From an uncultured Candidatus Saccharibacteria bacterium (GTDB taxonomy: Bacteria; Patescibacteriota; Minisyncoccia; Phycocordibacterales; PALSA-1337), in contig CAYSPX010000004.1 of assembly GCA_964433125.1 (NCBI GenBank), positions 1-31,184 on the forward strand: a DNA stretch of 31,184 bases. The letters run 5' to 3'. Below are positions 24-28,931 of this stretch, in pieces (within the stretch, counting starts at the first letter, position 1; each line of letters starts with the position of its first letter). The translations under genes and the position numbers were made by a program. A model generated the notes under the pieces. The model made no database searches. It saw only the letters and a list, made by a program, of their open reading frames with translations, and was not told the origin of the DNA.

Positions 24-1295
24 CTAATTCAACTTCCCTTTTAAATTCTCATAAACCCAAGTAATATACTTCACAAAAAGTATCATCGCTGTTGTCCAAA
101 ACAACCCCAAGCCTATACCAGCAAGGATATCTGATAGCCAGTGCACACCTAGATAAACTCGGCTAAATGAAGTTAGAATAATTAAAATAACAGAACCGGC
201 GATTAGTATTTCTCTTAGCACTAATGATTTAATTTTAATTATAAAAAGATAAATTAACAAAACAAAGAAAATTGTAGCTATACTTGCATGACCACTTGGA
301 AAGCTATAACCAGTTTCTACTAAAAACTGACTTTCTGGGCGGATCCTTTCTACCATATTCTTGAGTGTATATGTAATCAAATATCCACCAAAAAAAGATA
401 GTGATATTGTTAGTGTATTATAATAATTCTTTTTGTATATATAATAGACAATAGAGATAATACCGAGAATAGCAATTGCTGTTGGACTGATCACGTCTGT
501 AACTATTTTCATAAATGCAATAAGCCAATCTATACTATTTTCTATAAAAAATTTATTTACATATAAGTCTAATTCGAGTAGTGACACTTTGTCTGTAATC
601 GCATCCTGAATTGTTTTGAAAAATAAATAAAGTCCCGCGAGGTTTAAGCCTAGTGTTATCAATTCATACTTTGCAAAAATATGAAATTTTTTGTTTATAA
701 AGCGATAACCCCAAATGATGATTATACCTATTAATATAGCGATAAAAATATACTTTCCCATAATAGGGGCCACCACATGGTAACTCGCTCCAAATATATA
801 ACCCACTGCTAGAGATGGTAAAGCCCAGAGTATCACAGCTATGAAATCATATAACCAAAAAAACTTGCTATGTGTTCCACTTGCACCAACAATAAAAGGA
901 GATAATGGGCGAGTGATGGGACTAAATCTTCCCAGAATGATGGTCTTGGCTGGATGTTCCTTGACCAAGTTTGTTGCCCTTTCAATATGTTCTGGTTTGA
1001 TAAAAAAAATAGAGCCAAATTTTGTAAAAAAAGCAAAACCGTATTTTTTGCCTAGAAAATATCCTATAGCATCACCAATCATTGCACTCACAACTATAAC
1101 TGGAATGATTATGGAAAGTTTAAATATATCAAGTTTGACCAAAAAACCAGCAATAAGAACTGTAGTGTGACCTGGTACGAATTGACCAATTATCGGCAAT
1201 CCTTCCAAGATTGTAATTATAAAAATAAGAATATAACCACCTTGTTCAATTATACCTTGCAGATTGTTACCTATCGTAGACAGAATTTGTGACAT
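24..1295 (-). CDS. Bifunctional DedA-family / PAP2 phosphatase membrane protein (putative polyprenyl-phosphate flippase-phosphatase fusion)
   Basis: The N-terminal half has DedA/SNARE_assoc motifs (LEGLPIIGQFVPG; GDAIGYFLG; GRFSPITR). The C-terminal half has all three PAP2 motifs (KNMVERIRP; FPSGH; SRVYLGVHWLSD). Many hydrophobic segments. Confidence 0.9.
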   Translation of the reverse strand: MSQILSTIGNNLQGIIEQGGYILIFIITILEGLPIIGQFVPGHTTVLIAGFLVKLDIFKLSIIIPVIVVSAMIGDAIGYFLGKKYGFAFFTKFGSIFFIKPEHIERATNLVKEHPAKTIILGRFSPITRPLSPFIVGASGTHSKFFWLYDFIAVILWALPSLAVGYIFGASYHVVAPIMGKYIFIAILIGIIIIWGYRFINKKFHIFAKYELITLGLNLAGLYLFFKTIQDAITDKVSLLELDLYVNKFFIENSIDWLIAFMKIVTDVISPTAIAILGIISIVYYIYKKNYYNTLTISLSFFGGYLITYTLKNMVERIRPESQFLVETGYSFPSGHASIATIFFVLLIYLFIIKIKSLVLREILIAGSVILIILTSFSRVYLGVHWLSDILAGIGLGLFWTTAMILFVKYITWVYENLKGKLN

Positions 1296-1312
1296 ATATA
1301 TTATAAGCCAAT

Positions 1313-1321
1313 ATTATACCA
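1313..1321 (-). promoter_or_regulatory. Putative extended -10 element (TGGTATAAT) for the DedA-PAP2 gene
   Basis: Perfect TGnTATAAT on the minus strand, 17 nt before the ATG at 1295. A second TATAAT (1305..1300) lies 4 nt before the ATG. Confidence 0.45.
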
Positions 1322-1327
1322 TAAGTG

Positions 1328-1355
1328 TGATAAAATTCTGATAAAATTTTTATCA
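1328..1355. promoter_or_regulatory. Putative operator: 10-bp direct repeat with 11-bp period plus overlapping 8-1-8 palindrome
   Basis: TGATAAAATT at 1328-1337 and 1339-1348; TGATAAAA-T-TTTTATCA at 1339-1355. It lies in the 114-bp divergent gap between DedA-PAP2 and the OmpR-family regulator. Confidence 0.55.
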
Positions 1356-1386
1356 TAGATTTCCACAAAAAATATTAGCGTAATTC

Positions 1387-1403: not shown

Positions 1404-1409
1404 CCTTGT

Positions 1410-2078
1410 ATGAAAATTTTGCTTATAGAGGATGATATCGAGATATCTGATTTTATCAAGAATAACTTAGGTGAAGATGTCTTTATTATTGATATTGCAG
1501 ATAATGGCTCTGATGGGTCTTTTCTTGCTAGAACAAACAATTATGATGTTATAGTCATGGATAATTCACTACCTATCAAGGACGGTATTACAGTCTGCGA
1601 AGAGATAAGGTCAGAGGGTATAAATACACCTATTATATTCTTGACGATTCATAACATCCTCAGAAAAAAGATCTTGGCACTAGACAAAGGTGCAGATGAT
1701 TATATGACCAAACCATTTGCTATCGAAGAGCTTAGGGCTAGGATATTCGCTCTAGCGCGTAGACCACACGCTTTGGAAGATTCTATTTTAAGGGTAGATG
1801 ATTTGGTGATCGATACACACAGGAGAACAGTATGTAGAGGTAATAAACAAATATATCTTACTCGCAAAACATACAATCTGCTTGAATACCTGATGAAGAA
1901 TAAGGGTAAGGTTTTATCTAGAGGAATAATAATGGAGTGTGTCTGGAATTCAGATGGAGATCCATTTTCCAATACTGTAGAAGCTCATATTCTAAGCCTC
2001 AGAAAAAAGATAAATATAGACGGCAAGAAAGACATACTAAAAAATCTTCCCGGAAGAGGTTATATTATTGAGTCTTAA
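1410..2078 (+). CDS. OmpR/PhoB-family DNA-binding response regulator
   Basis: Receiver domain (MKILLIEDD; VIVMD; PIIFLT; GADDYMTKPF) plus winged-helix domain (LTRKTYNLLEYLM; SNTVEAHILSLRKKI; PGRGY); 222 aa. Confidence 0.92.
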   Translation: MKILLIEDDIEISDFIKNNLGEDVFIIDIADNGSDGSFLARTNNYDVIVMDNSLPIKDGITVCEEIRSEGINTPIIFLTIHNILRKKILALDKGADDYMTKPFAIEELRARIFALARRPHALEDSILRVDDLVIDTHRRTVCRGNKQIYLTRKTYNLLEYLMKNKGKVLSRGIIMECVWNSDGDPFSNTVEAHILSLRKKINIDGKKDILKNLPGRGYIIES

Positions 2079-4311
2079 ACTTCCCTTCAGTTATCTGTTG
2101 GATCAATGAATCTACTTGTGCCTTTGGAACTGGGAACAATTCTCCAATAGTTCGCACTGTCTGGATAGCAAGAGCGTTTTGACCATTCAAAATATAAGCA
2201 TAAGCAAGTGCAGAATATATTTCTTGTGGTTGGTTACCAGCCTTGATTAATTTTTTATATATTTCTATAGCTTTTCCATACTGCTTTACATATATATAAG
2301 CATTAATAATTTTAGGGTCATTAAAGATATCCATTTCACCTTTAAACACATCGAGCGCTTTAGATTCTTGACCTACTGCAATAAGTGTAGCTGCGTATCC
2401 AACCTTTGCGGTATCATTATCCTTTGCTGATAAATATGCTTTCTCCATAAGATCGACGGCTTCTTGCTTCTTACCGATAGTTAGGTAGTTAGAAGCTAGC
2501 TCAAATATTATGGTTTGTTTATTTGGTGATAAAGTATTTGCTTTTTCTAGTAGTGGAGTAGCTGATTTATGATCTTGAATTAGACTAAATAAACCACCGG
2601 CAATTATATATATTCTAGCGTCATTTGGAGTTCGTTTGATCTGGTTATCCACCTCAGCTTTTACTAAATTATAAAATTCAACCTTAGCCTTCTCTGTTGC
2701 TTGAGGACTAGTGATAACTCTCGCAGTACAACTTATAAGTTGCTCAACTGTTTCCTGACTTGCTACAGTTTGACCAAGAGATAAGACTTTTACAAATGGA
2801 GCGGTTGTTATAGTCTGGACATTTTGACACTGACTTAGAGCGTTTATTAATCCTCTATTTGCCCGAATTGGTCTAACATTTATAAAGTACAAACAAGAAA
2901 CTGCTGCTATAACTATAACTGGCACGTAAACATAATCACGGATTGTAATATCATCTTCTGACTGGTGCATATGAAAATTCTTGAAAATAAATGGAGTTTT
3001 TCCAAATTTAAGTGAATGTACAAATGCCAAAAAAGTTATAAACATCACATAACTTGTTTGATTGTCGAATACGAATACATTGTGAATGGCATATCCAACC
3101 AATAGACCAATCAAAATTGATTTTTGTGCAATACTTATATCACTTTTATAAATATAAACTAGAGAGATCAAATACAAAGCGAGATATGATAGAAGTCCTA
3201 GCAAACCTCCTGCTACAAGCCAATCTAGGTATACACTGTGAGCTCTATCGAACCACTGTTCATGTCTCCACATCTCAGGATTATAGTTTGAATTAAATAT
3301 GTAGTTAAAGTTTTCTTGTCCAATACCAATAACTGCAGTCTTTGGATTTGAAAAAATTGATTTTACTGCCATTGGCCAGATATAACCTCGAGCCTGTGTT
3401 TTTGTATCATTGATTGAGATTGTAGCTAAACGACCTAGCACTGCATTATTTTTTATAAAACCAGATTCTTTAAATTGTATAAATAATGCACCTAAAATAA
3501 TAAATGAAGCTATCGTTCCACCAGCAATAGATCTTGTAATATTTGACTGTCCGGTACCCTTTTTGCCAAATACCAAATAGATAGAACAAGAAACTAAAAT
3601 AGCGGCGATCCAACCTAGGATAGTACCTCTTGTTGCAGTCTGGAACATTATAAATGAAAAGAATGCAAACAAAACAGAATACGTCCATACCAGGTGATGC
3701 TTCTTGGAATAGTAACTAACTGCCATAAAACCAGCGATAAATGCGTTTATAAGCATATATGCTGCCATATAAGCAGAGTTTCCTAGTGAAGCATCTACTC
3801 GACTACCTTGATGTGTCTCAGCCCAACCGAAAAACTGGTATAGGCCATAAACAGCAGTGATAAACCCTCCAAACAACACAACATTAAAAAACATTCTCCA
3901 ATTCTCTCTTGTGGTCATTACAGAAGATAGAATCATATAATATCCCCATAGATGAACTATTGTTATCCATCCTTCCATTCGCTCAAAATTGGACCAGATG
4001 CTGCGGAGTGGACTCAAACCAACTAGATCCGCTACTAGAGCGATGATGGTAAGAATTGTCACTGCAATAGTTAACAAGTTTACCCTTGGAATAACACTCT
4101 TATCAGTATCCACGAGCGTCGTTCCCTTTTCTCTTAAAATCAAAATCAACCAAAGTGCAAAAATAACCTCAATAATTATTCTAAAAGCAAAGCCTTTTCC
4201 TGATATAAAAGGAAAGAACATAGAGTTCTCAACATACAATGGAATAAAAGGAATAATAGCGAGTCCAGTAATAATAGCGTATTTAAATATTTTATTGATT
4301 GTGTTGTTCAT
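2065..4311 (-). CDS. O-antigen ligase-like (Wzy_C/WaaL/O-OTase) membrane protein with C-terminal TPR-like repeats
   Basis: About 12 hydrophobic segments with TATRG, GIGQENF and RAHSVYLDWLVAGGLLG motifs typical of Wzy_C proteins. The C-terminal ~200 aa are helical with TPR-like spacing (EAVDLMEKAY; YGKAIEIYKKLI; ALAYAYILNGQ). Confidence 0.8.
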   Translation of the reverse strand: MNNTINKIFKYAIITGLAIIPFIPLYVENSMFFPFISGKGFAFRIIIEVIFALWLILILREKGTTLVDTDKSVIPRVNLLTIAVTILTIIALVADLVGLSPLRSIWSNFERMEGWITIVHLWGYYMILSSVMTTRENWRMFFNVVLFGGFITAVYGLYQFFGWAETHQGSRVDASLGNSAYMAAYMLINAFIAGFMAVSYYSKKHHLVWTYSVLFAFFSFIMFQTATRGTILGWIAAILVSCSIYLVFGKKGTGQSNITRSIAGGTIASFIILGALFIQFKESGFIKNNAVLGRLATISINDTKTQARGYIWPMAVKSIFSNPKTAVIGIGQENFNYIFNSNYNPEMWRHEQWFDRAHSVYLDWLVAGGLLGLLSYLALYLISLVYIYKSDISIAQKSILIGLLVGYAIHNVFVFDNQTSYVMFITFLAFVHSLKFGKTPFIFKNFHMHQSEDDITIRDYVYVPVIVIAAVSCLYFINVRPIRANRGLINALSQCQNVQTITTAPFVKVLSLGQTVASQETVEQLISCTARVITSPQATEKAKVEFYNLVKAEVDNQIKRTPNDARIYIIAGGLFSLIQDHKSATPLLEKANTLSPNKQTIIFELASNYLTIGKKQEAVDLMEKAYLSAKDNDTAKVGYAATLIAVGQESKALDVFKGEMDIFNDPKIINAYIYVKQYGKAIEIYKKLIKAGNQPQEIYSALAYAYILNGQNALAIQTVRTIGELFPVPKAQVDSLIQQITEGKFKTQ

Positions 4312-4331: not shown

Positions 4332-5276
4332 TTATTTAAACATATTAAAGAGTTTTTGGGCGAGGAAAATATCTGTATCTCTTCTAGATTCGTAAGTCAT
4401 ACCTCCAATATGTGGAGTAATAATTACCCTAGAATTTGACTGAGCGTATTTGACCAAGACATGATCACTGCAGTTATTTTTTTCAAAAAGAATCTCTCCA
4501 TCGATGACATCAGTTGCATATCCATCAATAATATTATTCTGTAGAGAATGTATAATGTCTTTTTCATCAACTATCTTCCCCCTAGAAGTATTTATTATAC
4601 AAGCGTTCCTCTTCATCAGACGAATTGAATCTATATTAAACATATTTTCTGTTTCATTATTCAAATGGGTGTGAATAGAAATATAATCACTAATTTTCAG
4701 TAGCTCATCAAAATCAATCTTTCGCCAGTTTAAATTATCTACATATGGATCGACATATACGACTTTCATACCCAAAGCACTACCGTAAGTAGCCATCATC
4801 TTTCCGAGACGGCCAAGTCCTACAATACCTAGTGTCTTGCCAAAAAGTGAGTGGCCTTTGAAATTTTCTCTATTCCACTCACCTTTTAAAACTGACAAAT
4901 GTGAGGCTGGTATATTTCGCGCCAACAAAATCATTAAACCTAGAGCAAGTTCAGCTGTACCAGTAATTGTATTCAAAAAATCAACTTCTTCTTTCAGACT
5001 GACTATCTTTATCTTTTTTTCTTCAGCTTTTTTTAAATCGATATGATCAAGACCTGTAGTTGCCGTTGCAATAATTTTTAATTTATCAACTCCACCTAAA
5101 ACGTTTGATGTAAAATTTAAACCTAGTCCACAAAGAATGATATCGTATTTTTTAATATTTTCCATCAATTCTGCTTGAGTAATATTTAAATAGTCAACTT
5201 TACCTAGTTTTTCTAATATCTTTTTTGCATCATTATCAAAAATCTCTCCTATAGTATTCAAAATTCGTAATCTCAT
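4332..5276 (-). CDS. D-isomer-specific 2-hydroxyacid dehydrogenase (SerA-like, no ACT domain)
   Basis: TTGLDHIDL, TAELALGL, Rossmann GIVGLGRLG, YVDP, INTSRG, DVIDGE and TPHIGG motifs; 314 aa. Confidence 0.85.
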   Translation of the reverse strand: MRLRILNTIGEIFDNDAKKILEKLGKVDYLNITQAELMENIKKYDIILCGLGLNFTSNVLGGVDKLKIIATATTGLDHIDLKKAEEKKIKIVSLKEEVDFLNTITGTAELALGLMILLARNIPASHLSVLKGEWNRENFKGHSLFGKTLGIVGLGRLGKMMATYGSALGMKVVYVDPYVDNLNWRKIDFDELLKISDYISIHTHLNNETENMFNIDSIRLMKRNACIINTSRGKIVDEKDIIHSLQNNIIDGYATDVIDGEILFEKNNCSDHVLVKYAQSNSRVIITPHIGGMTYESRRDTDIFLAQKLFNMFK

Positions 5277-5281: not shown

Positions 5282-6004
5282 TTAAAATTTAAAACCTTTT
5301 TTATTCAATTCAGCAAGCATGTATTCCGCTTGTACCCAGTCAACAGGATAATCAATATCTATGGATCTTTCAGGTGGAACAATATAACCAACTATCTTTT
5401 CTCCATAAAGTTTATTCTCTTTCATAATTAAATCTCTTCTCATAGAATAAACTGCAGCACTTCTTCTATACGCGACAGGTAAATCCTGTCTCCTGATTCC
5501 TTCCACTTCCAACACAGAATAATCCTTAACAAAGCCTCCTTCGATCTTTTTTATTTTAATTGGATGGGCATTACTTGGAACCTCGACTATTGTTACAGCA
5601 CTGTCTGCTTTTGTCATTATTAGTTTATTAAGTGTTTCATCAATATCTTCTACTGTTCTAAACGGAGAGGTTGGTTGTAAAATAACCACATAATCAATAA
5701 TCAAACTATTAAGTGCCTCATAAGTAGCTATAGCGTGTTGTATTACAGGTAAATGCTGGACCGAATCGCCCGCCAACTCAGATGGCCTCATAAATGGAAC
5801 ATTAGCTCCAAACCCTATACAAACATTAGCAATTTCTACACTATCAGTCGATACAATCAAGTGGTTTATTAACTTACTTTTACTAGCAACTGCAATAGTA
5901 TAGTAAACAAGTGGCTTATTTCCCAATTTTTTAATATTTTTTCCTGGAATACCTTTTGAACCGCCTCTTGCAGTGATTACACCTAATATATTATATTTTT
6001 TCAT
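5282..6004 (-). CDS. neuA: CMP-nonulosonic acid (acylneuraminate) cytidylyltransferase
   Basis: ARGGSKGIPGKN signature, VSTD, LQPTSPFR, SIDID. Its ATG overlaps the neuB TGA (ATGA, 6001-6004). Confidence 0.93.
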   Translation of the reverse strand: MKKYNILGVITARGGSKGIPGKNIKKLGNKPLVYYTIAVASKSKLINHLIVSTDSVEIANVCIGFGANVPFMRPSELAGDSVQHLPVIQHAIATYEALNSLIIDYVVILQPTSPFRTVEDIDETLNKLIMTKADSAVTIVEVPSNAHPIKIKKIEGGFVKDYSVLEVEGIRRQDLPVAYRRSAAVYSMRRDLIMKENKLYGEKIVGYIVPPERSIDIDYPVDWVQAEYMLAELNKKGFKF

Positions 6005-7146
6005 TTTTTAATAGTTATATGTTTTTTTGAAACTGGCTGATATTTTTTTATATCAATTTTTATCTTTTTTCCAACAACATGGTGAAAAAAATTTGAAGGT
6101 ATACCATCTAAATACATTCTTGGTCTCATTGCATACAACATATCCTTAGTAAGGATAGTTCCCGCCACTAAATCTCTTGCTGCAACTAAGGTCTTATTGA
6201 AATATGGTCTATATTTATTTTTAGAACCAGCCAACTCCTTATCTATTTTCCCATAAAATGGTTTAATATTAATTTTATTATATCTCTTACTCTTTATTGA
6301 ACTGGCAAGTGATTTCATCTCAGCTGGAGTAATAGAGGCTTTATGATCAGATCCCCACATTTTTCTTGATAGAGAAAAATGCTTCTCAATAACTTGAGCA
6401 CCAACTTTTATTGCAGCTAATGGAATTACATTGCTCCCCACCGAATGATCAGAGAAGCCGATGATTGCCTTAGGATATTTTTTTTTAAAATATTCAATTG
6501 TAGACAAATTAAAAGACTTAGGTGGACAAGGATACTCACTTATACAATATAAAATAACGAGGGGACACTTTTTTTTAGTAATATATTCAACTACTTCATC
6601 TAATTCATTATGACTAACCATTCCTGTCGAAATTATAATTGTTTTTTTTGTACTAATTAGGAAATCTAAAAGTAGATAGTCTTGTATATCCCCAGATCCT
6701 ATTTTCCAAAAAGGGACGCCGATTTTTTCAAGTTTAACCGCCGCCATACGCGACATTGGTGTGGAAAAAAAGATAATTCCTTTTTTATCAGAATATTCTT
6801 TTAACTCTTTAAAAAAACTAATTGGCGCTTCTTCGGTATTTCTTTTTACCCACGCATACCTATCACTTCCCTTAAAATGTGGTGAAGTTATTTTTATATC
6901 AACTTGTTCATCTTCCACTTCATGCGTCTGAAACTTTACTGCATGTGCACCAGCTTTTACAGCCTCGTCTATGAGTTTTTTTGCATTCTTTAAATACACA
7001 TCTTTTCCATGGGACTCTTTAGTTTGAATAAAATTCTTTCCAATTTCAGCAATGATAAAAATATTGTCTTTTGAAACAAGATTACCGATTGGATCTAGAT
7101 TCTCTCTTTTATTAGGTATGTGTGATTTTTGAGTTTTATTGTTCAT
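6001..7146 (-). CDS. neuB: N-acetylneuraminate / nonulosonate synthase with C-terminal SAF (antifreeze-like) domain
   Basis: IIAEIG, AVKFQT, KIGSG, IISTGM, GFSDH, IEKHF, SDH motifs; SAF domain LVAARDLVAGTILTKDMLYAMRP. Confidence 0.92.
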   Translation of the reverse strand: MNNKTQKSHIPNKRENLDPIGNLVSKDNIFIIAEIGKNFIQTKESHGKDVYLKNAKKLIDEAVKAGAHAVKFQTHEVEDEQVDIKITSPHFKGSDRYAWVKRNTEEAPISFFKELKEYSDKKGIIFFSTPMSRMAAVKLEKIGVPFWKIGSGDIQDYLLLDFLISTKKTIIISTGMVSHNELDEVVEYITKKKCPLVILYCISEYPCPPKSFNLSTIEYFKKKYPKAIIGFSDHSVGSNVIPLAAIKVGAQVIEKHFSLSRKMWGSDHKASITPAEMKSLASSIKSKRYNKINIKPFYGKIDKELAGSKNKYRPYFNKTLVAARDLVAGTILTKDMLYAMRPRMYLDGIPSNFFHHVVGKKIKIDIKKYQPVSKKHITIKK

Positions 7147-14360: not shown

Positions 14361-14400
14361 GGTAAAGTATTCTATCATACATATAACAAACAGTAATAAT
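14361..14400. promoter_or_regulatory. 40-bp divergent intergenic region with overlapping -10-like elements
   Basis: Minus strand TGATAGAAT (14377..14369) lies 8 nt before ATG 14360. Plus strand TATCAT (14373-14378) and TATAAC (14382-14387) precede ATG 14401. Confidence 0.4.
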
Positions 14401-17711: not shown

Positions 17712-17712
17712 A

Positions 17713-22578: not shown

Positions 22579-23172
22579 TTATTTTACAGCATATAAATAA
22601 TAACCGGAAGTTGTAGTTCTTGATTCAGTTTTAAATACACTATCCATAAATGTACCTAGTGGTTCAATTATAAATTTCAATCTATGTTGCATAGGAATAA
22701 AGAAAAATAGTGTTTTAAAATAACCACCCCTTTTAACTAATTCAACTCTCGAAAAATCGGCAAACATAAAAAATAGTGTATCATCAAAAAACCTCCAATA
22801 ATCTGGGTAGGAGCCCTTTCTTGCGTGATATGGATAAATTGATGGAACATATACAAAAATCTTACCTCCCGGTTTAAGCACGCGTCTAAGCTCTATAACT
22901 GCTCTAATTGGATCTTTTACATGCTCAAGCACAGAACTACATATAATTGCATCCAAACTATCTGATTTTAAGGGTATATTATGTATATCACCGACAACAT
23001 CAGCCCCCGTCTTACTATCATAATCCATTGTCATGTAATTTGTCTTATCAAATAACTTTTTATATGGCAACAGCCATTTTTGGAAACGATCACCACCACC
23101 AATATCCAAAATATCCATTTCTTTACTTATCTCATGCATTTTATCATCAACAAATTTTTGATATTTAGACAT
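22579..23172 (-). CDS. Class I SAM-dependent methyltransferase (type 11-like)
   Basis: LDIGGG, GDIHNIPL, SSVLEHV, LKPGG. Start moved to ATG 23172 (MSKYQ), 1 nt after the upstream stop. Confidence 0.83.
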   Translation of the reverse strand: MSKYQKFVDDKMHEISKEMDILDIGGGDRFQKWLLPYKKLFDKTNYMTMDYDSKTGADVVGDIHNIPLKSDSLDAIICSSVLEHVKDPIRAVIELRRVLKPGGKIFVYVPSIYPYHARKGSYPDYWRFFDDTLFFMFADFSRVELVKRGGYFKTLFFFIPMQHRLKFIIEPLGTFMDSVFKTESRTTTSGYYLYAVK

Positions 23173-23173
23173 A

Positions 23174-23818
23174 TTATTTTTTATTCTTAGCAATAAAACA
23201 CAGGTCAAATGCAAATAATTGTGGAAATTTTCTTGCAATAAACCCCAATCTTCCTATTCCGACAATCTCAACATCAAAAAAATATTGTGATAACAAACCT
23301 TTCAGTTCATTAGAGGAAAAATGATTTATATGAGTTGGATCAGATAAAGGAGTATATTTTTTATTTGCAAAAATATACTTAATCCTATTTTTTAAACTAA
23401 AAGCATTTGGAACTGAACCTATAAAAAAACCGTCCTTCTTTAGAATATTAGAAACTTTCATAATAACTCTATCTGGATAAAAAACATGTTCAAGAAACTC
23501 CCCCGCTACCACTACATCAAATTTTCTATCACCAAGATGAGTCCATTCTGATTGAATATCAAACGTAGCTGTCTCTATCTCTAAATTTTTTGCTGCCCTT
23601 GCTAAACTAATTTGGTCTATATCTACTCCCATTACTTTATTACCTTTTACAAAAAAAGAAGTAAGTGCTCCATCCCTACAACCTAAGTCAAGAATATCTT
23701 TACCTTTACCAATTATTTTAGAGAAAAGGATACCCCTATCTGACTTCATCACACTAAACCCTTCTTCTCTCGCATTACCATGATGATCCTCGTACATTTT
23801 TTTTAATGATTCTGACAT
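23174..23818 (-). CDS. Class I SAM-dependent methyltransferase
   Basis: LDLGCRDG, GVDID, FDVVVAGEFLEHV, SVPN, HINHFS. Confidence 0.85.
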   Translation of the reverse strand: MSESLKKMYEDHHGNAREEGFSVMKSDRGILFSKIIGKGKDILDLGCRDGALTSFFVKGNKVMGVDIDQISLARAAKNLEIETATFDIQSEWTHLGDRKFDVVVAGEFLEHVFYPDRVIMKVSNILKKDGFFIGSVPNAFSLKNRIKYIFANKKYTPLSDPTHINHFSSNELKGLLSQYFFDVEIVGIGRLGFIARKFPQLFAFDLCFIAKNKK

Positions 23819-23827: not shown

Positions 23828-24856
23828 TTATACAATATTTGATATTTTATTACTAAGCTCTATTAAGCTATGCTTTTTAACGAAATTTTGTAATTTATTG
23901 ACTGCTTTTAACCTTTCCTCTGGTGTGTATGAGAGTAGTATCTTAATTTTTTGAGTAAGGTCATCCACATCACCTTCATTAAAAATATGACAATCGTCAA
24001 TTTGACCTATTAAATTCCTATTTGAAGCTAAAATCAGACATCCGCAAGCAATTGCCTCAAATATAGTTTTGTCGTACATACCACTCGATGAAAGATTAAC
24101 AAATATATCATGACTTGAATATACAGCGACGGTTTCAATATTTGGGATACCTTTATGAAATCTGATAAATGAATTTTGGTTATTTTTACTAACACTTTCT
24201 CTCAAACCATTATAATATTCGTAATCTTTTAAAAGAGGATCTCCATATATAGAACAAGTCATATTTATAAATTCTTTTTTAATTTTAGTGACAACAGAAA
24301 TCAACATATGAGGTCTTTTTACTGGTGATATTCTGCCTAGAAATAAAATACTCTGTTTTAATCTATTGGAATTGATGCTTTCCTTGAAGTTAACAAGGTC
24401 CACACCAACTGGCATTATTTGAGTCTTTTTATATTTAGCTGTATATGAAAAAACTGAAGTGCAAAAAACTTTTTTACAGAATAAAGCCGCTATGTCTGTA
24501 AGTATCGTGCCATCGTGGTGGTTTCTCCACATAAAGATATCTTTATTTAATATAAACCAAATTAAAGATCCCAATAATACGTACTCCTGATTCATGTGAA
24601 CAAAAACCTTATCGTAATTTTTATTTTCTAGCAAAATATACTTATAAAAGTTTAATATGTATTTAATTTTTAGAACACCCCTTTCCTTTCCCAATGAGAG
24701 AACTTTGACATTATTTGGTAATTTATATTTACCTTTATATAAACATATTACCTGAATCGACTCATAACTTTTTGAAAATTCAACGACCCACTGATGAAAA
24801 AATCCCAAGATTGGATCATTGATATCTATTTTTTGGGTTACTATTAACAACTTCAT
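23828..24856 (-). CDS. GT4 glycosyltransferase
   Basis: PVGVD, LFLGRISPVK, DKTIFEAIACG. Confidence 0.85.
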   Translation of the reverse strand: MKLLIVTQKIDINDPILGFFHQWVVEFSKSYESIQVICLYKGKYKLPNNVKVLSLGKERGVLKIKYILNFYKYILLENKNYDKVFVHMNQEYVLLGSLIWFILNKDIFMWRNHHDGTILTDIAALFCKKVFCTSVFSYTAKYKKTQIMPVGVDLVNFKESINSNRLKQSILFLGRISPVKRPHMLISVVTKIKKEFINMTCSIYGDPLLKDYEYYNGLRESVSKNNQNSFIRFHKGIPNIETVAVYSSHDIFVNLSSSGMYDKTIFEAIACGCLILASNRNLIGQIDDCHIFNEGDVDDLTQKIKILLSYTPEERLKAVNKLQNFVKKHSLIELSNKISNIV

Positions 24857-24858
24857 AA

Positions 24859-25707
24859 TTATTTATTGTATACTTGTTCTAGAATATCCATATCCTTATT
24901 TGTTGAGTTAAGTAGATCAATATTTTTTTCTTCCAAAGCCTTCAATACTGATATTCCAAGTTTATCATCTGACATTGCTTGTTCATAAGACTGTCTGAAA
25001 GCTGCAAAGTCTTTTATAAAGCATCGCCCTCCAGCACCTCTACCTGTCTTATGTACAGGATTAAAATAAGTAGAACTTTTCTCTGTATCGGCATCAATCG
25101 CAGACTTTATATTTTCCCAACTAGCACCGTGTGACTTTGCAAGATCATAAAGTAAATTACCAAACACAACAGTTACAAAACCTAAGCAATTGTGTGCGTA
25201 TTTTATAACCTCTGCCTCCTCTGCAGAACAGATAATTTCAAATGGTGACTTTGGTAACAGACTCAAAACTAGTTTTGCAGCATTTCTATTCTTATCGTCT
25301 TGTACAGATATTCCAACAATATTTCTTGTAGGATTTGCTGCCTCAAATGCTGCAGTTTTTTCACTAAGAAACTCTGGTGAATGCATAACTATAATATCCG
25401 TAAATTTACTTTGTAAGATCTTAGTAGTTCCAGGAATTATTGTAGACTTTATAACAGCTATTTTACCTTTACCGATCAAACTTAGAGTAGATTCTATAAT
25501 TGAATAATCAAAACCTTGTTTTGTAGTAGGGGTTGGTACTGCAATAAACACCACATCGCAATCCTTTATAAGATCTTTATTGTTTACATGATCAGGCTCT
25601 TGTGAATATCGAACAACCTTATACCCACGATTTTCAAAATCATCACTATAATTTTTACCAACAAAACCTTGTCCCACAAAACCAATTTTAAGATTTTCTT
25701 TATTCAT
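24859..25707 (-). CDS. UDP-glucose/GDP-mannose dehydrogenase family protein, short form lacking the C-terminal domain
   Basis: GFVGQGFVG, FIAVPTP, KSTIIPGTT, SPEFLSE, AEVIKYAHN, GAGGRCFIKD (catalytic Cys motif); only 282 aa. Confidence 0.82.
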   Translation of the reverse strand: MNKENLKIGFVGQGFVGKNYSDDFENRGYKVVRYSQEPDHVNNKDLIKDCDVVFIAVPTPTTKQGFDYSIIESTLSLIGKGKIAVIKSTIIPGTTKILQSKFTDIIVMHSPEFLSEKTAAFEAANPTRNIVGISVQDDKNRNAAKLVLSLLPKSPFEIICSAEEAEVIKYAHNCLGFVTVVFGNLLYDLAKSHGASWENIKSAIDADTEKSSTYFNPVHKTGRGAGGRCFIKDFAAFRQSYEQAMSDDKLGISVLKALEEKNIDLLNSTNKDMDILEQVYNK

Positions 25708-25713: not shown

Positions 25714-26769
25714 TTATTTAAATATATTAATTATTTTCCCTGCCACACTCCCCCGATCCCACCCCACAATATCCGCCCCGACATCCCTCGCAATCCCGAC
25801 ATCTGTACTAACTATTTTACATCCTGCAGCCTCAGCTTCTTTGAAGACCATACCATAACCTTCATACCACGATGTCATGAGAAAGACGTCACAACCCTTA
25901 TAGTACGATATAGTATCAGTCTGTGAGCCCACAAACTCCACCATATGCCCTATTTTGAGTCTATTTGCTCTATCTTTAAGGCTAGCGAGCAATCCCCCTG
26001 AACCGACAACAACTAGTCCTACACCGGGAATTTTATCATTTACAAGTTTTATAGCATCTATTGCTAGTGACACATTTTTCTCAGGCTCAAGACGTGCTAC
26101 CATCAAAACAATTTTCTTAAAATTAGGATACTTCAAATGAAGATCAAAAGATGGGATTGTGTTTTTAATACTATCCACATCGACACCTATAGGTTTTACA
26201 ATTATTTTATCAAAATCAATACCCCTCTGTACTAGTGAATCCGCAACCTTTCTGGAAACCACCTGTATTACCTGTGCGTGTTGAAGAGTGAAGTTTGATA
26301 TAAAAAGATTGATTCTATTTAAAATAGAGTGCTTTAAACCAATTTTTAAACTACAAAAATACGGGCTATATAAATCAGTATGAACCTGTAAAAGCAATTC
26401 TGAATTTAAACGAAGATTTGCAAGACACTTACCAACTAGACCTGTTTCAAAAGGATTTTGACAACTTACAAGTAGAGGCGTTTGATTATTAATTTTTTTA
26501 ATAATCTTTTTACCTATCTTTTGCGCATCTGAAACATAGTTTGGTCTTATAAATGATCTTGTAGAATAGACCGTGCAATTGTCGGATATCGTAATTGGCT
26601 CAATGCGCTTTGTAGAAAAAACAATTATATTTAGTTCTTTATATTTCTTTGCATACTCTATCATTCTAGCTCGCACAGAACTTTTTTCATCAAAAATCAA
26701 CTGATCTGTTGAAATCATAATAACTGCATAATTAGAATAATCTTTGTATTCTGTTTTATAGTTTTGCAT
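25714..26769 (-). CDS. GT4 glycosyltransferase
   Basis: PIGVD, MVARLEPEKN, YEGYGMVFKEA (EX7E), VSTDVG. Confidence 0.87.
   Translation of the reverse strand: MQNYKTEYKDYSNYAVIMISTDQLIFDEKSSVRARMIEYAKKYKELNIIVFSTKRIEPITISDNCTVYSTRSFIRPNYVSDAQKIGKKIIKKINNQTPLLVSCQNPFETGLVGKCLANLRLNSELLLQVHTDLYSPYFCSLKIGLKHSILNRINLFISNFTLQHAQVIQVVSRKVADSLVQRGIDFDKIIVKPIGVDVDSIKNTIPSFDLHLKYPNFKKIVLMVARLEPEKNVSLAIDAIKLVNDKIPGVGLVVVGSGGLLASLKDRANRLKIGHMVEFVGSQTDTISYYKGCDVFLMTSWYEGYGMVFKEAEAAGCKIVSTDVGIARDVGADIVGWDRGSVAGKIINIFK
25738..25797 (-). other. G-rich tract with seven GGG+ runs (putative G-quadruplex-forming sequence)
   Basis: Plus-strand C-runs at 25738-40, 25750-54, 25758-60, 25762-65, 25776-79, 25785-87 and 25795-97. 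42 of 63 nt are G/C at 25738-25800, in AT-rich surroundings. Confidence 0.55.
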
Positions 26770-26770
26770 A

Positions 26771-27799
26771 TTATTTTTTAGAAATATTTAAGTGGAGGGC
26801 CACAAATTCATCACAAATATTTGCCCATGTATGTATCCAAGTAAATTTCTTTATTTTTTCTGCTTGTGTCGCTCTGTTTTGTGGATCTGAAATCCAGACT
26901 ATTTTATCCTTTATATCTTTTTCATTCATTGGATCAACAAATATCGCACAATCCTTCACTCTATTTGCGATTCCAGTTTCTTGAGTCAAAATAAATGGAG
27001 TTCCCACACGAATAGCATCAAAAATCATATTGGGGCTTATGTCACCAATAGATGTAAGTATAACTGCATATGACCTTCTCATACGTTCCTGAAAGTTATC
27101 ATAGACAGCCTTTGTAGTATCAAATTCTATATCTTCAAATCCTTTATTTTTTATCTCTACCTGTGCTTGTTTAAATGCTCTCTTTAGTGCGTCTATATTT
27201 TTCCATTTCAAATCTCTAGTTCCGGCAACAAAAGTGCGGTTTTCAGGTGTAATAAACTCATCTCTAACACCACAAAAGTTTTCTATTATTCGACTTTTCT
27301 TTGAATCAAGTTTATATGCTTTTTCAAAAATACTTCTCTGCCACTCTGTACTGTAGACAATTAGCGACGCTTTTCGTAAAGCTTCTCCACCTAGTTTAAA
27401 AATTAACTTTTCTTTTCTTGATAATTTACTTAATGAAGTATTGTAGAAGTTTTTAAATAAAACCATGTCCCCTGTTCTCTCTACATAAGTTTCCCAGAGG
27501 AAATCTCCACCAGTTCTGATGATGTATTTTTTATTCATTATTTTACAAGCATACATTGTCGGAACAGCAGCACTCCAAGTGTCCAGTACGATAATCATAT
27601 CTGCATTCCATCCTTTTCTAAAAATCTTTAGGAAAAATAAAATATGCCTAACAAAAGTAGGAAAAGCCCTCTCCCATCTATATGCCGCTACTTTTACTTC
27701 ATGACCCTGACTCTTCCAAGTTTCATATAGGTTGCGGGCGTATTGAGCTGGTCCACCAATATCAGGTGGATATATACCTGTAGAGATTAAGATTTTCAT
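26771..27799 (-). CDS. GT4 glycosyltransferase
   Basis: MKILISTGIYPPDIGGPAQY N-terminus; DISPNMIFDAIRVGTP in place of the EX7E motif. Confidence 0.82.
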   Translation of the reverse strand: MKILISTGIYPPDIGGPAQYARNLYETWKSQGHEVKVAAYRWERAFPTFVRHILFFLKIFRKGWNADMIIVLDTWSAAVPTMYACKIMNKKYIIRTGGDFLWETYVERTGDMVLFKNFYNTSLSKLSRKEKLIFKLGGEALRKASLIVYSTEWQRSIFEKAYKLDSKKSRIIENFCGVRDEFITPENRTFVAGTRDLKWKNIDALKRAFKQAQVEIKNKGFEDIEFDTTKAVYDNFQERMRRSYAVILTSIGDISPNMIFDAIRVGTPFILTQETGIANRVKDCAIFVDPMNEKDIKDKIVWISDPQNRATQAEKIKKFTWIHTWANICDEFVALHLNISKK

Positions 27800-27800
27800 A

Positions 27801-28931
27801 TTATCTTAAGAATACCTTATTTTTCATGTCTCTGGCAACAATATCCCAATCGTATTTATTTTTCACCATACTTTCGGCATTATTGACAATATAGTCATAA
27901 GATTCCTTATCTTTAACTAATTTTTCTACTTTTTGTGCAATACTCTGAGGATTATTAACTTCACATAAAAGTCCAGTCTCTCCATCTTTAACAAAGTCCA
28001 CGATTCCGCCAACTGGTGTTGCGATTACTGGTATACCCGCAGCCATAGCTTCCACATAAGATATTCCAAAACCTTCAGAAAGTGCCGGTCTAATAAAAAT
28101 ATCTGAAATATGTAAGTATTGAGGCATTTCAGAATGATCAACAAAACCCACAAACCGCACCCTCTCCTCAAGCCCAAGTCTAGCAACCTTTTCTTTCAAT
28201 TCCCCTTCCAAATGTCCCACTCCAAGTATTAAAAATTTAACATTCGCTGGTAAATACTGTAGCGCCTCTATCGTGTCCCCTGTAGCATTTTTCAAAACAA
28301 GTCTAGATGTTGTAATCAAAAATATATCATCAACCTTTTTACCCAAATTCCTCTTCAAAATTTCCAAATCCGCATGAGACTTCTTGATTGAAAATAAATT
28401 AAAATCAACACCGTTTGGAATAACCTCGACTGGGCATTTCGCACCCATTTTTCGTGCCCAATCCGCTAGAAAATTTGATATAGCTTGAATATGATCAGCT
28501 TTAGTAAAAATCATTTTAAACAATGGATATAGTGGAAGCGCGCGTCTTTCCATATGTTCTATAGGGTCTCCCTCTTGTAAAGTCAGTATGTATGGAACTT
28601 TTGGATTAATTATTTTAAAAAAGAGCGCAGCAAAAGAGTTATAACTTGCCATCATTGACCATATTGCATCGTATTTATTTTTTTTATGTAACGAAAGGGC
28701 ATTAAAAAGACATAGGGGTATGAAAGAATATTTATCAAAATATCCTATGCGATAAATATTAACATTTCCAATTCTTTCAAATTTAGGATCATTTTTATTA
28801 AAATGAAAAGTCACCATGTCAAACTCAATCTCATCAACAGGTATTCTTTTAGATATTTCTTTTATTGCAATCTCCGCTCCACCAACAGGTTTGGGGTAGT
28901 ATGCTAATGAAAATATGAGTATTTTCTTCAT
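27801..28931 (-). CDS. GT4 glycosyltransferase
   Basis: GGAE, IPNGVD, SEGFGISYVEAMAAGIPVIATPVGG, DGETG. Confidence 0.92.
   Translation of the reverse strand: MKKILIFSLAYYPKPVGGAEIAIKEISKRIPVDEIEFDMVTFHFNKNDPKFERIGNVNIYRIGYFDKYSFIPLCLFNALSLHKKNKYDAIWSMMASYNSFAALFFKIINPKVPYILTLQEGDPIEHMERRALPLYPLFKMIFTKADHIQAISNFLADWARKMGAKCPVEVIPNGVDFNLFSIKKSHADLEILKRNLGKKVDDIFLITTSRLVLKNATGDTIEALQYLPANVKFLILGVGHLEGELKEKVARLGLEERVRFVGFVDHSEMPQYLHISDIFIRPALSEGFGISYVEAMAAGIPVIATPVGGIVDFVKDGETGLLCEVNNPQSIAQKVEKLVKDKESYDYIVNNAESMVKNKYDWDIVARDMKNKVFLR

What the first reader, a model, noticed from the sequence alone, without database searches (positions are those of the whole stretch)
24..28931. Candidate complete surface-glycosylation system for a methylated sialic-type glycan, probably in a CPR bacterium
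Seen: one locus holds donor synthesis (neuCBA, UDP-sugar dehydrogenase), at least 12 putative glycosyltransferases of GT2, GT4, GT9, GT-C and SWD types, five SAM methyltransferases, two flippases (Wzx, GtrA), a Wzy_C/WaaL-TPR transferase and a DedA-PAP2 carrier-recycling fusion. Established: Patescibacteria generally lack lipid A/LPS synthesis but are rich in type IV pili and surface proteins, and Wzy_C-family enzymes include pilin O-oligosaccharyltransferases (PglL, TfpO). Inference: this builds an O-methylated nonulosonate-capped glycan on protein or another non-LPS acceptor, possibly for host mimicry, attachment or phage evasion.
Basis: partly seen in the sequence, partly recalled or inferred. 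Interest (0 to 1): 0.75.

Follow-up and report, generated by a model that had tools for sequence, protein, structure and literature searches.

The report
Sialic-type surface glycan locus, CPR bacterium
A tiny uncultured wastewater bacterium with no lipopolysaccharide genes carries a conserved 29-kb gene island that most likely builds a methylated, sialic-acid-containing surface sugar chain and attaches it to an unknown, non-LPS target, using transferases whose activity has never been tested.

Summary
The gene content is confirmed: neuC/neuB/neuA, three paralogous TagF-like GT-B proteins, five SAM methyltransferases, four GT4, two GT2, GT9, a PMT_2 GT-C, Wzx, GtrA, a Wzy_C-TPR protein and a DedA-PAP2 fusion.

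Two corrections apply. The "UDP-sugar dehydrogenase" lacks the UDP-binding domain. The locus is not complete: the only initiating phosphoglycosyltransferase lies on another contig.

The genome (634 kb, 90% complete) has no LpxA/B/C, WaaA, LCP ligase or DegT aminotransferase, and has 13 pilin-like matches. Homologues come from Patescibacteria.

The cassette is conserved and colinear in at least nine other loci. Of 27 sampled genomes with the GT-B family, 26 also have NeuB. Natural fusions join the GT-B to a NeuA-like domain and to a methyltransferase.

The Wzy_C domain models as a full WaaL fold (Z 22), followed by a 13th helix that should put the TPR domain outside the cell.

Best reading: a Wzx/Wzy-type, Und-PP-linked, nonulosonate-containing methylated glycan, ligated to a non-lipid-A acceptor. 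The acceptor, the sugar identity and the transferase activity remain inferred. The source is wastewater and freshwater, so vertebrate mimicry is unlikely.

This scan saw the GT-B/methyltransferase cassette earlier in two other genomes. It is a new variant of a known kind.

The parts
24..1295 (-). DedA (VTT) + PAP2 fusion, 423 aa. Putative Und-PP phosphatase fused to an Und-P flippase, for carrier-lipid recycling.
   Evidence: PF09335 55.5 bits and PF01569 68 bits. Weak UptA, SepP and BcrC-type NCBIfam hits. At least 8 hydrophobic segments. Fusions of this kind are already noted in PMC10127716.
1410..2078 (+). OmpR-type response regulator, convergent with Wzy_C-TPR. A possible regulator; there is no kinase in the window.
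   Evidence: Response_reg + Trans_reg_C.
2065..4311 (-). WaaL-fold Wzy_C membrane domain (12 TM), then a 13th TM helix, then a C-terminal TPR domain (~480-748). Putative ligase or oligosaccharyltransferase for Und-PP-linked glycan.
   Evidence: PF04932 52.5 bits plus TPR. AF2 pLDDT 86. Residues 6-437 align to full-length WaaL 7tpj at Z 22.2. Hydrophobic helix at 455-478. Invariant R228, R294 and H358 in 29 homologues.
4332..5276 (-). D-2-hydroxyacid dehydrogenase (short PGDH-like). Conserved member of the cassette; role unknown.
   Evidence: PF02826/PF00389. Best PDB relative is PGDH 1wwk. Lies in the neu gene cluster (beside neuA in three of the four) in L009, L011, G270 and G125.
5282..6004 (-). 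NeuA-type CMP-nonulosonate synthetase.
   Evidence: PF02348 80 bits. TIGR03584 PseF 153 bits, below its cut-off.
6001..7146 (-). NeuB-type nonulosonate synthase with SAF domain.
   Evidence: PF03102 216 bits. TIGR03569 245 bits and PseI 205 bits, both below their cut-offs. Best PDB relative is N. meningitidis NeuB, 1.3e-42.
7176..8333 (-). NeuC-type hydrolysing UDP-GlcNAc 2-epimerase.
   Evidence: TIGR03568 333 bits against a cut-off of 236.
8337..9320 (-). Zn-ribbon (Cys4) + Methyltransf_23 methyltransferase (MT_a).
   Evidence: PF13489. CxxC...CxxC at the N-terminus.
9322..10680 (-). TagF-like GT-B paralogue 2. Candidate CMP-nonulosonate transferase. The HP-motif His is replaced by Gln.
   Evidence: PF04464 38.5 bits. 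NF046086 46 bits. Alignment.
10691..12010 (-). TagF-like GT-B paralogue 3. Candidate CMP-nonulosonate transferase. The HP-motif His is replaced by Pro.
   Evidence: PF04464 40.4 bits. NF046086 30 bits. Alignment.
12007..12957 (-). Zn-ribbon (Cys4) + Methyltransf_23 methyltransferase (MT_b).
   Evidence: PF13489 52.9 bits. Sequence. No solved relative by sequence.
13011..14378 (-). TagF-like GT-B paralogue 1. Keeps the VRxHP motif. Candidate CMP-nonulosonate transferase.
   Evidence: PF04464 34 bits. NF046086 85 bits, E 5e-24, below its cut-off of 200; TIGR04396. AF2 pLDDT 90.9. GT-B fold: NeuC Z 23.6, TarL 21.1, TagF 18.9.
14332..15519 (+). GT9 (heptosyltransferase-like) glycosyltransferase.
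   Evidence: PF01075 42 bits. RfaQ/heptosyltransferase III hits, below their cut-offs.
15511..16914 (-). Wzx-type flippase.
   Evidence: PF01943 35.4 bits.
17007..17711 (+). GT2, polyprenyl-phosphate sugar synthase-like (AglJ/ArnC/PgfS/PpgS-like).
   Evidence: PF00535 116 bits. NCBIfam hits.
17701..19110 (+). Polytopic membrane protein. Possible Wzy-type polymerase (weak EpsG match).
   Evidence: PF14897 E 0.0025, below its cut-off. At least 9 hydrophobic segments.
19103..20767 (+). GT-C glycosyltransferase (PMT_2/ArnT-like).
   Evidence: PF13231 27.5 bits against a cut-off of 26.1. At least 10 hydrophobic segments.
20768..21547 (+). Second GT2, polyprenyl-phosphate sugar synthase-like.
   Evidence: PF00535 87 bits. 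PgfS/PpgS/ArnC-like hits.
21461..21883 (-). GtrA-family small flippase-like protein.
   Evidence: PF04138 89 bits.
21883..22572 (-). TylF-family (sugar) O-methyltransferase.
   Evidence: PF05711 84.8 bits.
22579..23818 (-). Two class I SAM methyltransferases: 22579-23238 and 23174-23818. The called ORFs overlap by 65 bp.
   Evidence: PF08241 and PF13489.
23828..24856 (-). GT4 glycosyltransferase a.
   Evidence: PF00534.
24859..25707 (-). UGDH-like dehydrogenase lacking the UDP-binding C-terminal domain.
   Evidence: PF03721 + PF00984 only. GGRCFIKD motif kept. A 311-aa homologue is conserved in L009 and L010.
25714..28931 (-). Three GT4 glycosyltransferases: 25714-26769, 26771-27799, 27801-28931.
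   Evidence: PF00534 and PF13439.

Best explanation
The window holds a conserved Patescibacteria glycan island. It works as a Wzx/Wzy-type pathway on an undecaprenyl-diphosphate carrier, in a cell that has no lipid A.

Proposed steps:
1. A WbaP-like phosphoglycosyltransferase encoded elsewhere (contig C23) starts the chain on Und-P (inferred).
2. NeuC, NeuB and NeuA turn UDP-GlcNAc and PEP into a CMP-activated neuraminic-type nonulosonate. The gene families are shown. The sugar identity is inferred from the lack of any Leg/Pse aminotransferase.
3. Four GT4, one GT9 and three TagF-like GT-B paralogues extend the chain in the cytoplasm. The GT-B paralogues are proposed to use the CMP-nonulosonate (inferred).
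4. Zn-ribbon methyltransferases paired with the GT-B genes, a TylF-type enzyme and two further methyltransferases methylate the sugars (inferred).
5. Wzx flips the unit. The EpsG-like membrane protein may polymerise it.
6. The WaaL-fold Wzy_C enzyme has a TPR domain predicted to face outward. It transfers the glycan from Und-PP to a non-LPS acceptor, most plausibly a surface protein such as a pilin.
7. The DedA-PAP2 fusion dephosphorylates the released Und-PP and returns Und-P to the inner face.
8. A separate branch adds a side sugar on the outer face. It consists of GT2 polyprenyl-P-sugar synthases, GtrA and the PMT_2 GT-C enzyme.
For: - Gene families.
- No lipid A pathway: LpxC, WaaA, LpxA and LpxB not found in a 90%-complete genome.
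- No LCP ligase.
- No DegT aminotransferase. NeuC scores above its curated cut-off. NeuB is nearest to Neu5Ac synthase.
- GT-B to nonulosonate link. In a 301-genome phylum sample, 26 of 27 genomes with the GT-B family also have NeuB. The 27th has NeuA beside the GT-B on a 5-kb contig. The genes are often adjacent.
- Natural fusions: GT-B + CTP_transf_3 (P0081) and GT-B + Methyltransf_23 (P0355).
- Remote similarity to NF046086 (E 5e-24), the family of the T. forsythia Pse/Leg-derivative transferases studied in PMC5420450.
- No TagD or TarI to make CDP-glycerol or CDP-ribitol.
- Wzy_C-TPR: full WaaL fold at Z 22.2, an extra 13th TM helix, and invariant Arg and His residues.
- Initiating transferase on C23.
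- Colinear loci in five further species genomes at 54-77% amino-acid identity. The core cassette is also present in L009, L011, G270 and G125.
- Near-identical DNA in independent metagenomes from at least 10 studies.
Against: - No enzyme activity, sugar or acceptor has been observed.
- The GT-B proteins score below the NF046086 cut-off (85 against 200). Their model is a generic GT-B, closest to NeuC-type epimerases and TarL/TagF. No known sialyltransferase appears in the top 50.
- Two of the three paralogues lack the His of the HP motif.
- NeuB and NeuA fall below their NCBIfam equivalog cut-offs, so the exact nonulosonate is open.
- Wzy_C-TPR also occurs in related genomes without NeuB: 3 of 5 same-order genomes. 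It is therefore not specific to this glycan.
- Wzy_C-TPR has no PglL_A domain.
- The genome is 90% complete in 78 contigs, so absences are not proof.
- The roles of the 2-hydroxyacid dehydrogenase and the truncated UGDH-like protein are unexplained.
Confidence: 0.6

Rival explanations
1. The same biosynthetic pathway operates, but the product is not a glycoprotein. Wzy_C-TPR either polymerises the chain or ligates it to a glycolipid or cell-wall glycan. The result is a capsule-like or lipid-anchored, nonulosonate-containing polysaccharide.
For: - The Wzy_C domain is shared by polymerases, WaaL ligases and O-oligosaccharyltransferases. No PglL_A domain is present.
- Wzx and a possible Wzy are present.
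- TagF-like enzymes are often polymerases; TarL, TagF and capsule polymerases are among the fold matches.
- Sialylated extracellular polymers are reported in sludges (PMC10483923, listed).
Against: - The best structural match is the ligase WaaL over its full length, far above the SEDS polymerases (Z 22 against 13).
- A separate polymerase candidate exists at 17701-19110.
- No LCP enzyme for wall attachment and no lipid A.
- The predicted outward-facing TPR domain fits a macromolecular acceptor, but this is not decisive.
Confidence: 0.27
2. The three GT-B paralogues are what they are annotated as: CDP-glycerol or CDP-ribitol phosphotransferases making a teichoic-acid-like polymer. An unrecognised transferase handles the nonulosonate.
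For: - Pfam Glyphos_transf hits score above the gathering cut-off.
- The best solved sequence relative is TarL (5.5e-6).
- Public annotations read 'CDP-glycerol glycerophosphotransferase family'.
Against: - No TagD or TarI equivalent in the genome. The IspD hit is the GlmU N-terminal domain. The TagD-like hit sits in a nucleotide-metabolism context.
- NeuA is the only cytidylyltransferase in the locus.
- Near-perfect co-occurrence with NeuB.
- Fusion to a NeuA-like domain.
- No other sialyltransferase family is present in the window.
Confidence: 0.08
3. This is an ordinary LPS O-antigen locus from a Gram-negative bacterium, mis-binned into a small genome.
For: - Contig GC is 5 points below the genome mean.
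- WaaL fold and GT9 are present.
Against: - The tetranucleotide profile lies within the range of the bin.
- Homologues of the GT-B and Wzy_C-TPR proteins are named Patescibacteria.
- Colinear loci lie on 46-77 kb contigs of 0.6-0.7 Mb genomes that also lack LpxC.
Confidence: 0.03

Closest known systems
Wzx/Wzy-dependent O-antigen assembly with WaaL ligation (e.g. WaaL of Cupriavidus metallidurans, PDB 7tpj)
   Same: Wzx flippase, a candidate Wzy, a WbaP-type initiator in the genome, and a 12-TM WaaL fold with conserved Arg and His residues (Z 22.2 over 371 residues). Und-PP recycling functions are encoded alongside.
   Different: No lipid A or Kdo pathway to supply the acceptor. The ligase carries an extra TM helix and a ~270-aa TPR domain. 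The initiator is not linked to the locus.
Tannerella forsythia general protein O-glycosylation with a terminal Pse/Leg derivative. Transferases Tanf_01245 / TFUB4_00887 / BFO_1060, NCBIfam NF046086 (PMC5420450)
   Same: TagB/TagF-like GT-B proteins encoded beside nonulosonate synthesis genes. One paralogue matches NF046086 at E 5e-24. The glycan is also methylated in concept.
   Different: Scores are far below the family cut-off (85, 46 and 30 against 200). There are three paralogues instead of one. The donor pathway is NeuC-type, not Pse/Leg. The organism has no outer membrane.
TagF/TarL CDP-polyol phosphotransferases of wall teichoic acid synthesis (PDB 3l7i, 8va1)
   Same: Pfam Glyphos_transf membership and GT-B fold (Z 19-21). 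A cytidine-nucleotide donor is plausible.
   Different: No CDP-glycerol or CDP-ribitol synthesis genes. The HP-motif His is kept in only one of three paralogues. The genomic partner is neuCBA.
PglL/PilO-type O-oligosaccharyltransferases, and eukaryotic TMTC-type GT-C O-mannosyltransferases with lumenal TPRs
   Same: A Wzy_C membrane domain acting on Und-PP-glycan (PglL). A membrane glycosyltransferase fused to an extracytoplasmic TPR domain that could bind protein substrates (the TMTC comparison is from general knowledge, not tested here).
   Different: No PglL_A domain. No protein acceptor has been identified. TMTC enzymes have a different membrane fold family (PMT_2), so this is an analogy only.
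GtrA/GtrB/GtrC-type and ArnC/ArnT-type three-component outer-face glycosylation
   Same: GT2 polyprenyl-phosphate sugar synthase-like genes, GtrA, and a PMT_2 GT-C enzyme clustered at 17007-21883.
   Different: The acceptor is not LPS. The GT2 proteins are short and show no hydrophobic C-terminal helices.

Membership tests
LPS O-antigen locus (WaaL ligation to lipid A-core) | The genome encodes lipid A/Kdo synthesis (LpxA, LpxB, LpxC, WaaA) | tested here: not met
   No match for PF03331, PF04413, TIGR01852 or PF02684 in the 90.4%-complete genome. The controls rang in E. coli and others.
LPS O-antigen locus (WaaL ligation to lipid A-core) | WaaL-type 12-TM fold with conserved periplasmic Arg and His residues | tested here: met
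   The model aligns to 7tpj at Z 22.2 over 371 residues. R228, R294 and H358 are invariant in 29 homologues.
PglL-type O-oligosaccharyltransferase | Wzy_C domain together with the PglL_A domain | tested here: not met
   Wzy_C is present at 52.5 bits. No PglL_A or Wzy_C_2 hit appears in the Pfam scan at E <= 0.01.
PglL-type O-oligosaccharyltransferase | Transfers Und-PP-glycan to Ser/Thr of pilins or other proteins | not testable with these tools
   There are 13 pilin-like genes in the genome, but nothing links them to the enzyme.
Neu5Ac (sialic acid) biosynthesis NeuC-NeuB-NeuA | Hydrolysing UDP-GlcNAc 2-epimerase (NeuC) | tested here: met
   TIGR03568 333 bits against a cut-off of 235.9.
Neu5Ac (sialic acid) biosynthesis NeuC-NeuB-NeuA | NeuB equivalog (Neu5Ac synthase rather than the Pse, Leg or Kdn type) | tested here: inconclusive
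   PF03102 216 bits. TIGR03569 245 bits is below its cut-off of 400, and PseI 205 bits is below 340. The nearest solved protein is N. meningitidis NeuB.
Legionaminic / pseudaminic acid pathways | DegT-type aminotransferase (LegC/PseC) in the genome | tested here: not met
   No PF01041 match in the genome. The control rang in 14 of 14 genomes.
Known bacterial sialyltransferase families (GT38, GT42, GT52, GT80) | Sequence or fold match to one of these families | tested here: not met
   No such Pfam family appears for any window protein. None is among the top 50 fold matches of the GT-B model.
NF046086 BFO_1060-family nonulosonate transferases | Score above the curated cut-off (200 bits) | tested here: not met
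   85, 46 and 30 bits, as partial matches. The proteins are related to the family but are not members.
TagF/TagB Glyphos_transf (PF04464) | Pfam domain above the gathering score | tested here: met
   34-40 bits against a cut-off of 22.1 for all three paralogues.
TagF/TagB Glyphos_transf (PF04464) | A CDP-glycerol or CDP-ribitol donor pathway (TagD/TarI) is present | tested here: not met
   TIGR01518 scores 41 bits against a cut-off of 165, in a nucleotide-metabolism context. The IspD hit is the GlmU N-terminal domain.
Wzx/Wzy-dependent pathway | Initiating polyprenyl-phosphate phosphoglycosyltransferase | tested here: met
   None in the window. One Bac_transf protein (475 aa; TIGR03025 288 bits) lies on contig C23 beside FtsW/RodA, a GT4, an epimerase and SecDF.
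Wzx/Wzy-dependent pathway | Wzy polymerase | tested here: inconclusive
   EpsG matches at E 0.0025, below its cut-off. The protein is polytopic, with at least 9 hydrophobic segments.
DedA (UptA-type) Und-P flippase / PAP2 Und-PP phosphatase | VTT/DedA and PAP2 domains above their Pfam cut-offs | tested here: met
   55.5 bits against 33.9, and 68 bits against 27.2. The UptA and SepP equivalog scores fall below their cut-offs.

The most novel reading that the evidence does not exclude
Wzy_C-TPR is a general protein O-oligosaccharyltransferase of Patescibacteria. Its outward-facing TPR domain selects pilins or other surface proteins. In this lineage the transferred glycan carries several methylated sialic-type residues. 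These are added by a large, uncharacterised TagF-derived family of CMP-nonulosonate transferases (about 2,200 clusters at 50% identity), some with a rewired active site. The glycan would shape attachment of these episymbionts to their host cells, or their resistance to phages.
Probability: 0.22. Interest if true: 0.8.

Novelty: new variant of a known kind. Interest (0 to 1): 0.55.

Why it matters
The surface chemistry of CPR/Patescibacteria is almost unknown, although these cells live attached to other microbes. Three things follow from this locus.

- It gives a concrete, conserved gene set for a sialic-type, methylated glycan in cells that have no LPS.
- It points to a large family of TagF-like proteins as likely nonulosonate transferases. 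Few such enzymes are known in any bacterium.
- It points to a WaaL-fold enzyme with an external TPR domain, whose acceptor must be something other than lipid A.

Each of these can be tested by heterologous expression.

The literature searched holds only a passing mention of sialic acid genes in a CPR genome (PMC4736985). No paper in the library combines 'Patescibacteria' with 'nonulosonic'.

Tried and rejected
- The search for related loci with the 23-sequence GT-B alignment failed because no conserved stretch was long enough. It was repeated with a single protein.
- The Foldseek PDB search of the Wzy_C-TPR model returned only TPR proteins, and so did the PDB profile search. The membrane fold appeared only with the exhaustive VIA search.
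- Foldseek and AFDB-SwissProt searches of the GT-B model gave only generic GT-B hits such as MurG, LpxB, MGD and epimerases. They give no guide to specificity.
- No solved relative by sequence was found for the Zn-ribbon methyltransferase.
- Literature searches for Patescibacteria + nonulosonic, and for nonulosonic acid + glycerophosphotransferase, found nothing. Patescibacteria + O-antigen ligase found only an unrelated superfamily survey. The nonulosonate synthase phylogeny paper does not mention CPR.
- The kinship of the five 'Saccharibacteria'-titled genomes to this genome could not be obtained. The class-level placement within Patescibacteria is therefore left open.
- I considered that the weak IspD and TagD hits might supply CDP-polyols, and rejected this.
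- I considered an ADP-heptose pathway for the GT9 enzyme, based on an RfaE-domain-II-like hit. The gene's neighbours are nucleotide-metabolism genes, so this is unsupported.
- Complex prediction was not used. No specific binding pair is claimed.

Full report
**What is in the window.** The window is the whole of contig C4 of a 633,711-base, 78-contig genome.

A 10-gene leftward operon runs from 14378 to 2065. In order it encodes:
- GT-B paralogue 1
- a Zn-ribbon methyltransferase
- GT-B paralogues 3 and 2
- a second Zn-ribbon methyltransferase
- NeuC
- NeuB
- NeuA
- a D-2-hydroxyacid dehydrogenase
- a 748-aa Wzy_C-TPR protein

To its left lie an OmpR-type regulator and a DedA-PAP2 fusion.

To its right lie:
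- GT9 and Wzx
- a rightward block of GT2, an EpsG-like membrane protein, a PMT_2 GT-C enzyme and a second GT2
- a second leftward operon: four GT4, a UGDH-like gene, two class I methyltransferases, a TylF-type methyltransferase and GtrA

The contig ends with a coiled-coil protein and a VirD4/TrwB-like ATPase.

**Corrections to the observation.**
- The 'UDP-sugar dehydrogenase' has only the N-terminal and central domains. It keeps the catalytic Cys motif (GGRCFIKD) but has no UDP-binding domain. The flanking genes abut it, so nothing was lost by frameshift. A 311-aa version is conserved in related loci.
- No initiating phosphoglycosyltransferase is in the window. The genome's only Bac_transf gene lies on contig C23, between FtsW/RodA, a GT4, a GalE/LegB-like epimerase and SecDF. 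The only Glycos_transf_4 match is a single 378-aa ORF on C12, probably MraY. 'Complete' is therefore an overstatement.

**The organism.**
- The genome is small (634 kb, GC 36.5%), 90.4% complete and 0.47% contaminated.
LpxC, WaaA, LpxA and LpxB gave no match, while the controls rang in Gram-negative reference genomes.
- There is also no LCP wall-polymer ligase.
- There are 13 type IV pilin-like N_methyl matches.
- Named homologues of the GT-B and Wzy_C-TPR proteins are from Patescibacteria, Parcubacteria, Taylorbacteria, Sungbacteria and Paceibacterota.
- The five closest colinear loci sit in 0.6-0.7 Mb MAGs titled 'uncultured Candidatus Saccharibacteria bacterium'. These also lack LpxC.
- The contig's GC is 31.4%, five points under the genome mean. 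Its tetranucleotide profile correlates with the rest of the bin at 0.953, inside the range of the other contigs.
- Near-identical DNA occurs in wastewater, sludge, runoff and freshwater metagenomes from at least ten studies.

The locus is therefore real, and it belongs to an environmental CPR bacterium.

**Which nonulosonate.**
- NeuC scores above its curated equivalog cut-off.
- NeuB and NeuA fit their Pfam families but fall below the NCBIfam equivalog cut-offs.
- The nearest solved relative of NeuB is N. meningitidis Neu5Ac synthase, ahead of PseI.
- No DegT-type aminotransferase is found anywhere in the genome. This argues against legionaminic or pseudaminic acid.
- A GlmU-type uridylyltransferase domain is present, which would supply UDP-GlcNAc.

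A neuraminic-type sugar is the best guess. The exact product is open. The conserved 2-hydroxyacid dehydrogenase inside the operon hints at a modification that I cannot name.

**The three GT-B paralogues.** They share only 25-26% identity with each other, so the duplication is old.
- *Family membership.* They belong to Pfam Glyphos_transf. Their best solved sequence relative is TarL. The AF2 model (pLDDT 90.9) is a GT-B fold nearest to NeuC-type epimerases, TarL and TagF. No GT38, GT52 or GT80 sialyltransferase is among the top matches.
- *Link to T. forsythia.* One paralogue matches NCBIfam NF046086 at E 5e-24, well under the cut-off. This family is built on the Tannerella forsythia Pse/Leg-derivative transferases studied by Tomek et al. 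(PMC5420450).
- *Co-occurrence.* The case for a nonulosonate donor is mostly genomic. In an even sample of 301 genomes of the phylum, 57 have NeuB and 27 have the GT-B family. Of those 27, 26 have NeuB. The 27th has NeuA next to the GT-B on a 5-kb contig. Kin are not independent, but the positives span nine families.
- *Fusions.* One natural fusion joins the GT-B to a NeuA-like cytidylyltransferase domain. Others join it to a Methyltransf_23 domain, a deacetylase, a PhyH dioxygenase or a second GT-B.
- *No alternative donor.* The genome has no TagD or TarI to make the CDP-polyol donors implied by the public annotation.
- *Size.* The family is large: 2,182 cluster representatives at E <= 1e-30.
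- *HP motif.* Only paralogue 1 keeps the His of the VRxHP motif. The other two have Gln and Pro.

**Conservation of the locus.**
- The core is two to four GT-B genes, neuC, neuB, neuA and the 2-hydroxyacid dehydrogenase. Wzx, the short UGDH-like gene and Wzy_C-TPR usually accompany it. This core recurs in a Hainich groundwater contig, a Taylorbacteria contig, and genomes G270 and G125.
- Five further species genomes are colinear with the window over TylF, PMT_2, the EpsG-like gene, Wzx, GT9, GT-B1, MT, GT-B3 and GT-B2, and one of them (L030) also over the second MT and NeuC. Amino-acid identity is 54-77%, except one locus (L031) whose PMT_2 match is 37% and which lacks the EpsG-like gene.
- The distribution is patchy. 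None of the five sampled same-order genomes has NeuB, and three of 13 same-class genomes do.

**Wzy_C-TPR.**
- The AF2 model (pLDDT 86) aligns over residues 6-437 to full-length WaaL (7tpj) at Z 22.2. The SEDS polymerases score about Z 13.
- WaaL has 12 TM helices with both ends in the cytoplasm (established knowledge). Here a 13th hydrophobic helix (455-478) follows, and then the TPR domain.
- Lys/Arg-rich short loops at 202-206, 249-256 and 433-454 fit this topology. The TPR domain is therefore predicted to lie outside, on the same side as the catalytic loop. This is an inference.
- R228, R294 and H358 are invariant in 29 homologues.
- The family is very common in Patescibacteria: more than 2,800 hits, and 41 of 301 sampled genomes with a single-protein query. 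It also occurs in genomes without NeuB. It is therefore a general transferase, not one tied to this glycan.
- It has no PglL_A domain.
- With no lipid A and no LCP enzyme, it is the only evident candidate for the final transfer step. Its acceptor must be something else. A surface protein is plausible but untested.

**Carrier recycling and side branch.** A WaaL-type reaction releases Und-PP outside the cell. The adjacent DedA-PAP2 fusion would dephosphorylate it and flip Und-P back. Such fusions are already noted in the literature as support for DedA flippase function (PMC10127716). The two GT2 proteins resemble polyprenyl-phosphate sugar synthases (AglJ, ArnC, PgfS, PpgS). With GtrA and the PMT_2 GT-C enzyme they form a standard three-part outer-face glycosylation branch.

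**Verdict.**
CPR placement and a non-LPS acceptor are supported. A nonulosonate-containing methylated glycan is well supported as an inference.
- The acceptor, the 'cap' architecture and the ecological roles are not shown. Vertebrate mimicry is unlikely given the habitat.
- This scan had already noted the GT-B/methyltransferase cassette in two other Patescibacteria genomes, with similar conclusions.
- I rate it a new variant of a known kind of system, of moderate interest.

Noticed in passing
window 24859-25707: UGDH-like protein with the catalytic Cys motif (GGRCFIKD) but no UDP-binding C-terminal domain. The short form (282-311 aa) is conserved in related loci, so it may act on a substrate that is not a UDP-sugar.
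   Followed up: partly
window 4332-5276; L009 14801-15772; L011 2559-3512; L016 9189-10133; L018 9361-10287: A PGDH-like D-2-hydroxyacid dehydrogenase is a conserved member of the NeuC-type cassette. It is missing from the loci without a NeuC match (G138, G008, G095, G054). Its role in nonulosonate synthesis or tailoring is unexplained.
   Followed up: partly
proteins P0081, P0355, P0347, P0329, P0237: Natural fusions of the TagF-like GT-B family with a NeuA-like cytidylyltransferase, a Methyltransf_23 domain, a polysaccharide deacetylase, a PhyH dioxygenase and a second GT-B copy.
   Followed up: partly
window 9322-14378 (alignment A1): Only paralogue 1 keeps the His of the VRxHP motif. Paralogues 2 and 3 have Gln and Pro. 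W185, D186, R298 and S361 are invariant across 23 family members.
   Followed up: partly
window 29045-31176: A coiled-coil (XhlA-like, weak) protein and a VirD4/TrwB-type coupling ATPase at the contig end. Local GC is about 39%, close to the genome mean. Their relation to the glycan island is unknown.
   Followed up: no
G000:C23 (L015) 1175-5768: The genome's only WbaP-like initiating phosphoglycosyltransferase sits in a housekeeping context: FtsW/RodA, GT4, PGT, GalE/LegB-like epimerase, SecD, SecF.
   Followed up: partly
phylum sample, family f36 (e.g. G098:C5:33941-34651): In many genomes of one family, NeuB lies in an open frame of about 630 aa, which suggests a NeuB fusion protein. The GT-B homologue there is a shorter form of about 400 aa, often on another contig.
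   Followed up: no
window 22579-23818: The two class I methyltransferase ORFs overlap by 65 bp as called (the downstream ORF's TTG start lies at 23238). Its true start is probably further downstream.
   Followed up: no
window 17007-17711 and 20768-21547: Both GT2 polyprenyl-phosphate-sugar-synthase-like proteins are short (234 and 259 aa). They show no hydrophobic C-terminal helices, unlike the usual GtrB/ArnC architecture.
   Followed up: no
window 2065-9320 in public runs: Near-identical sequence (0.5-1.0 of sampled words) occurs in wastewater, sludge, runoff and freshwater metagenomes from at least ten studies dated 2019-2025.
   Followed up: partly
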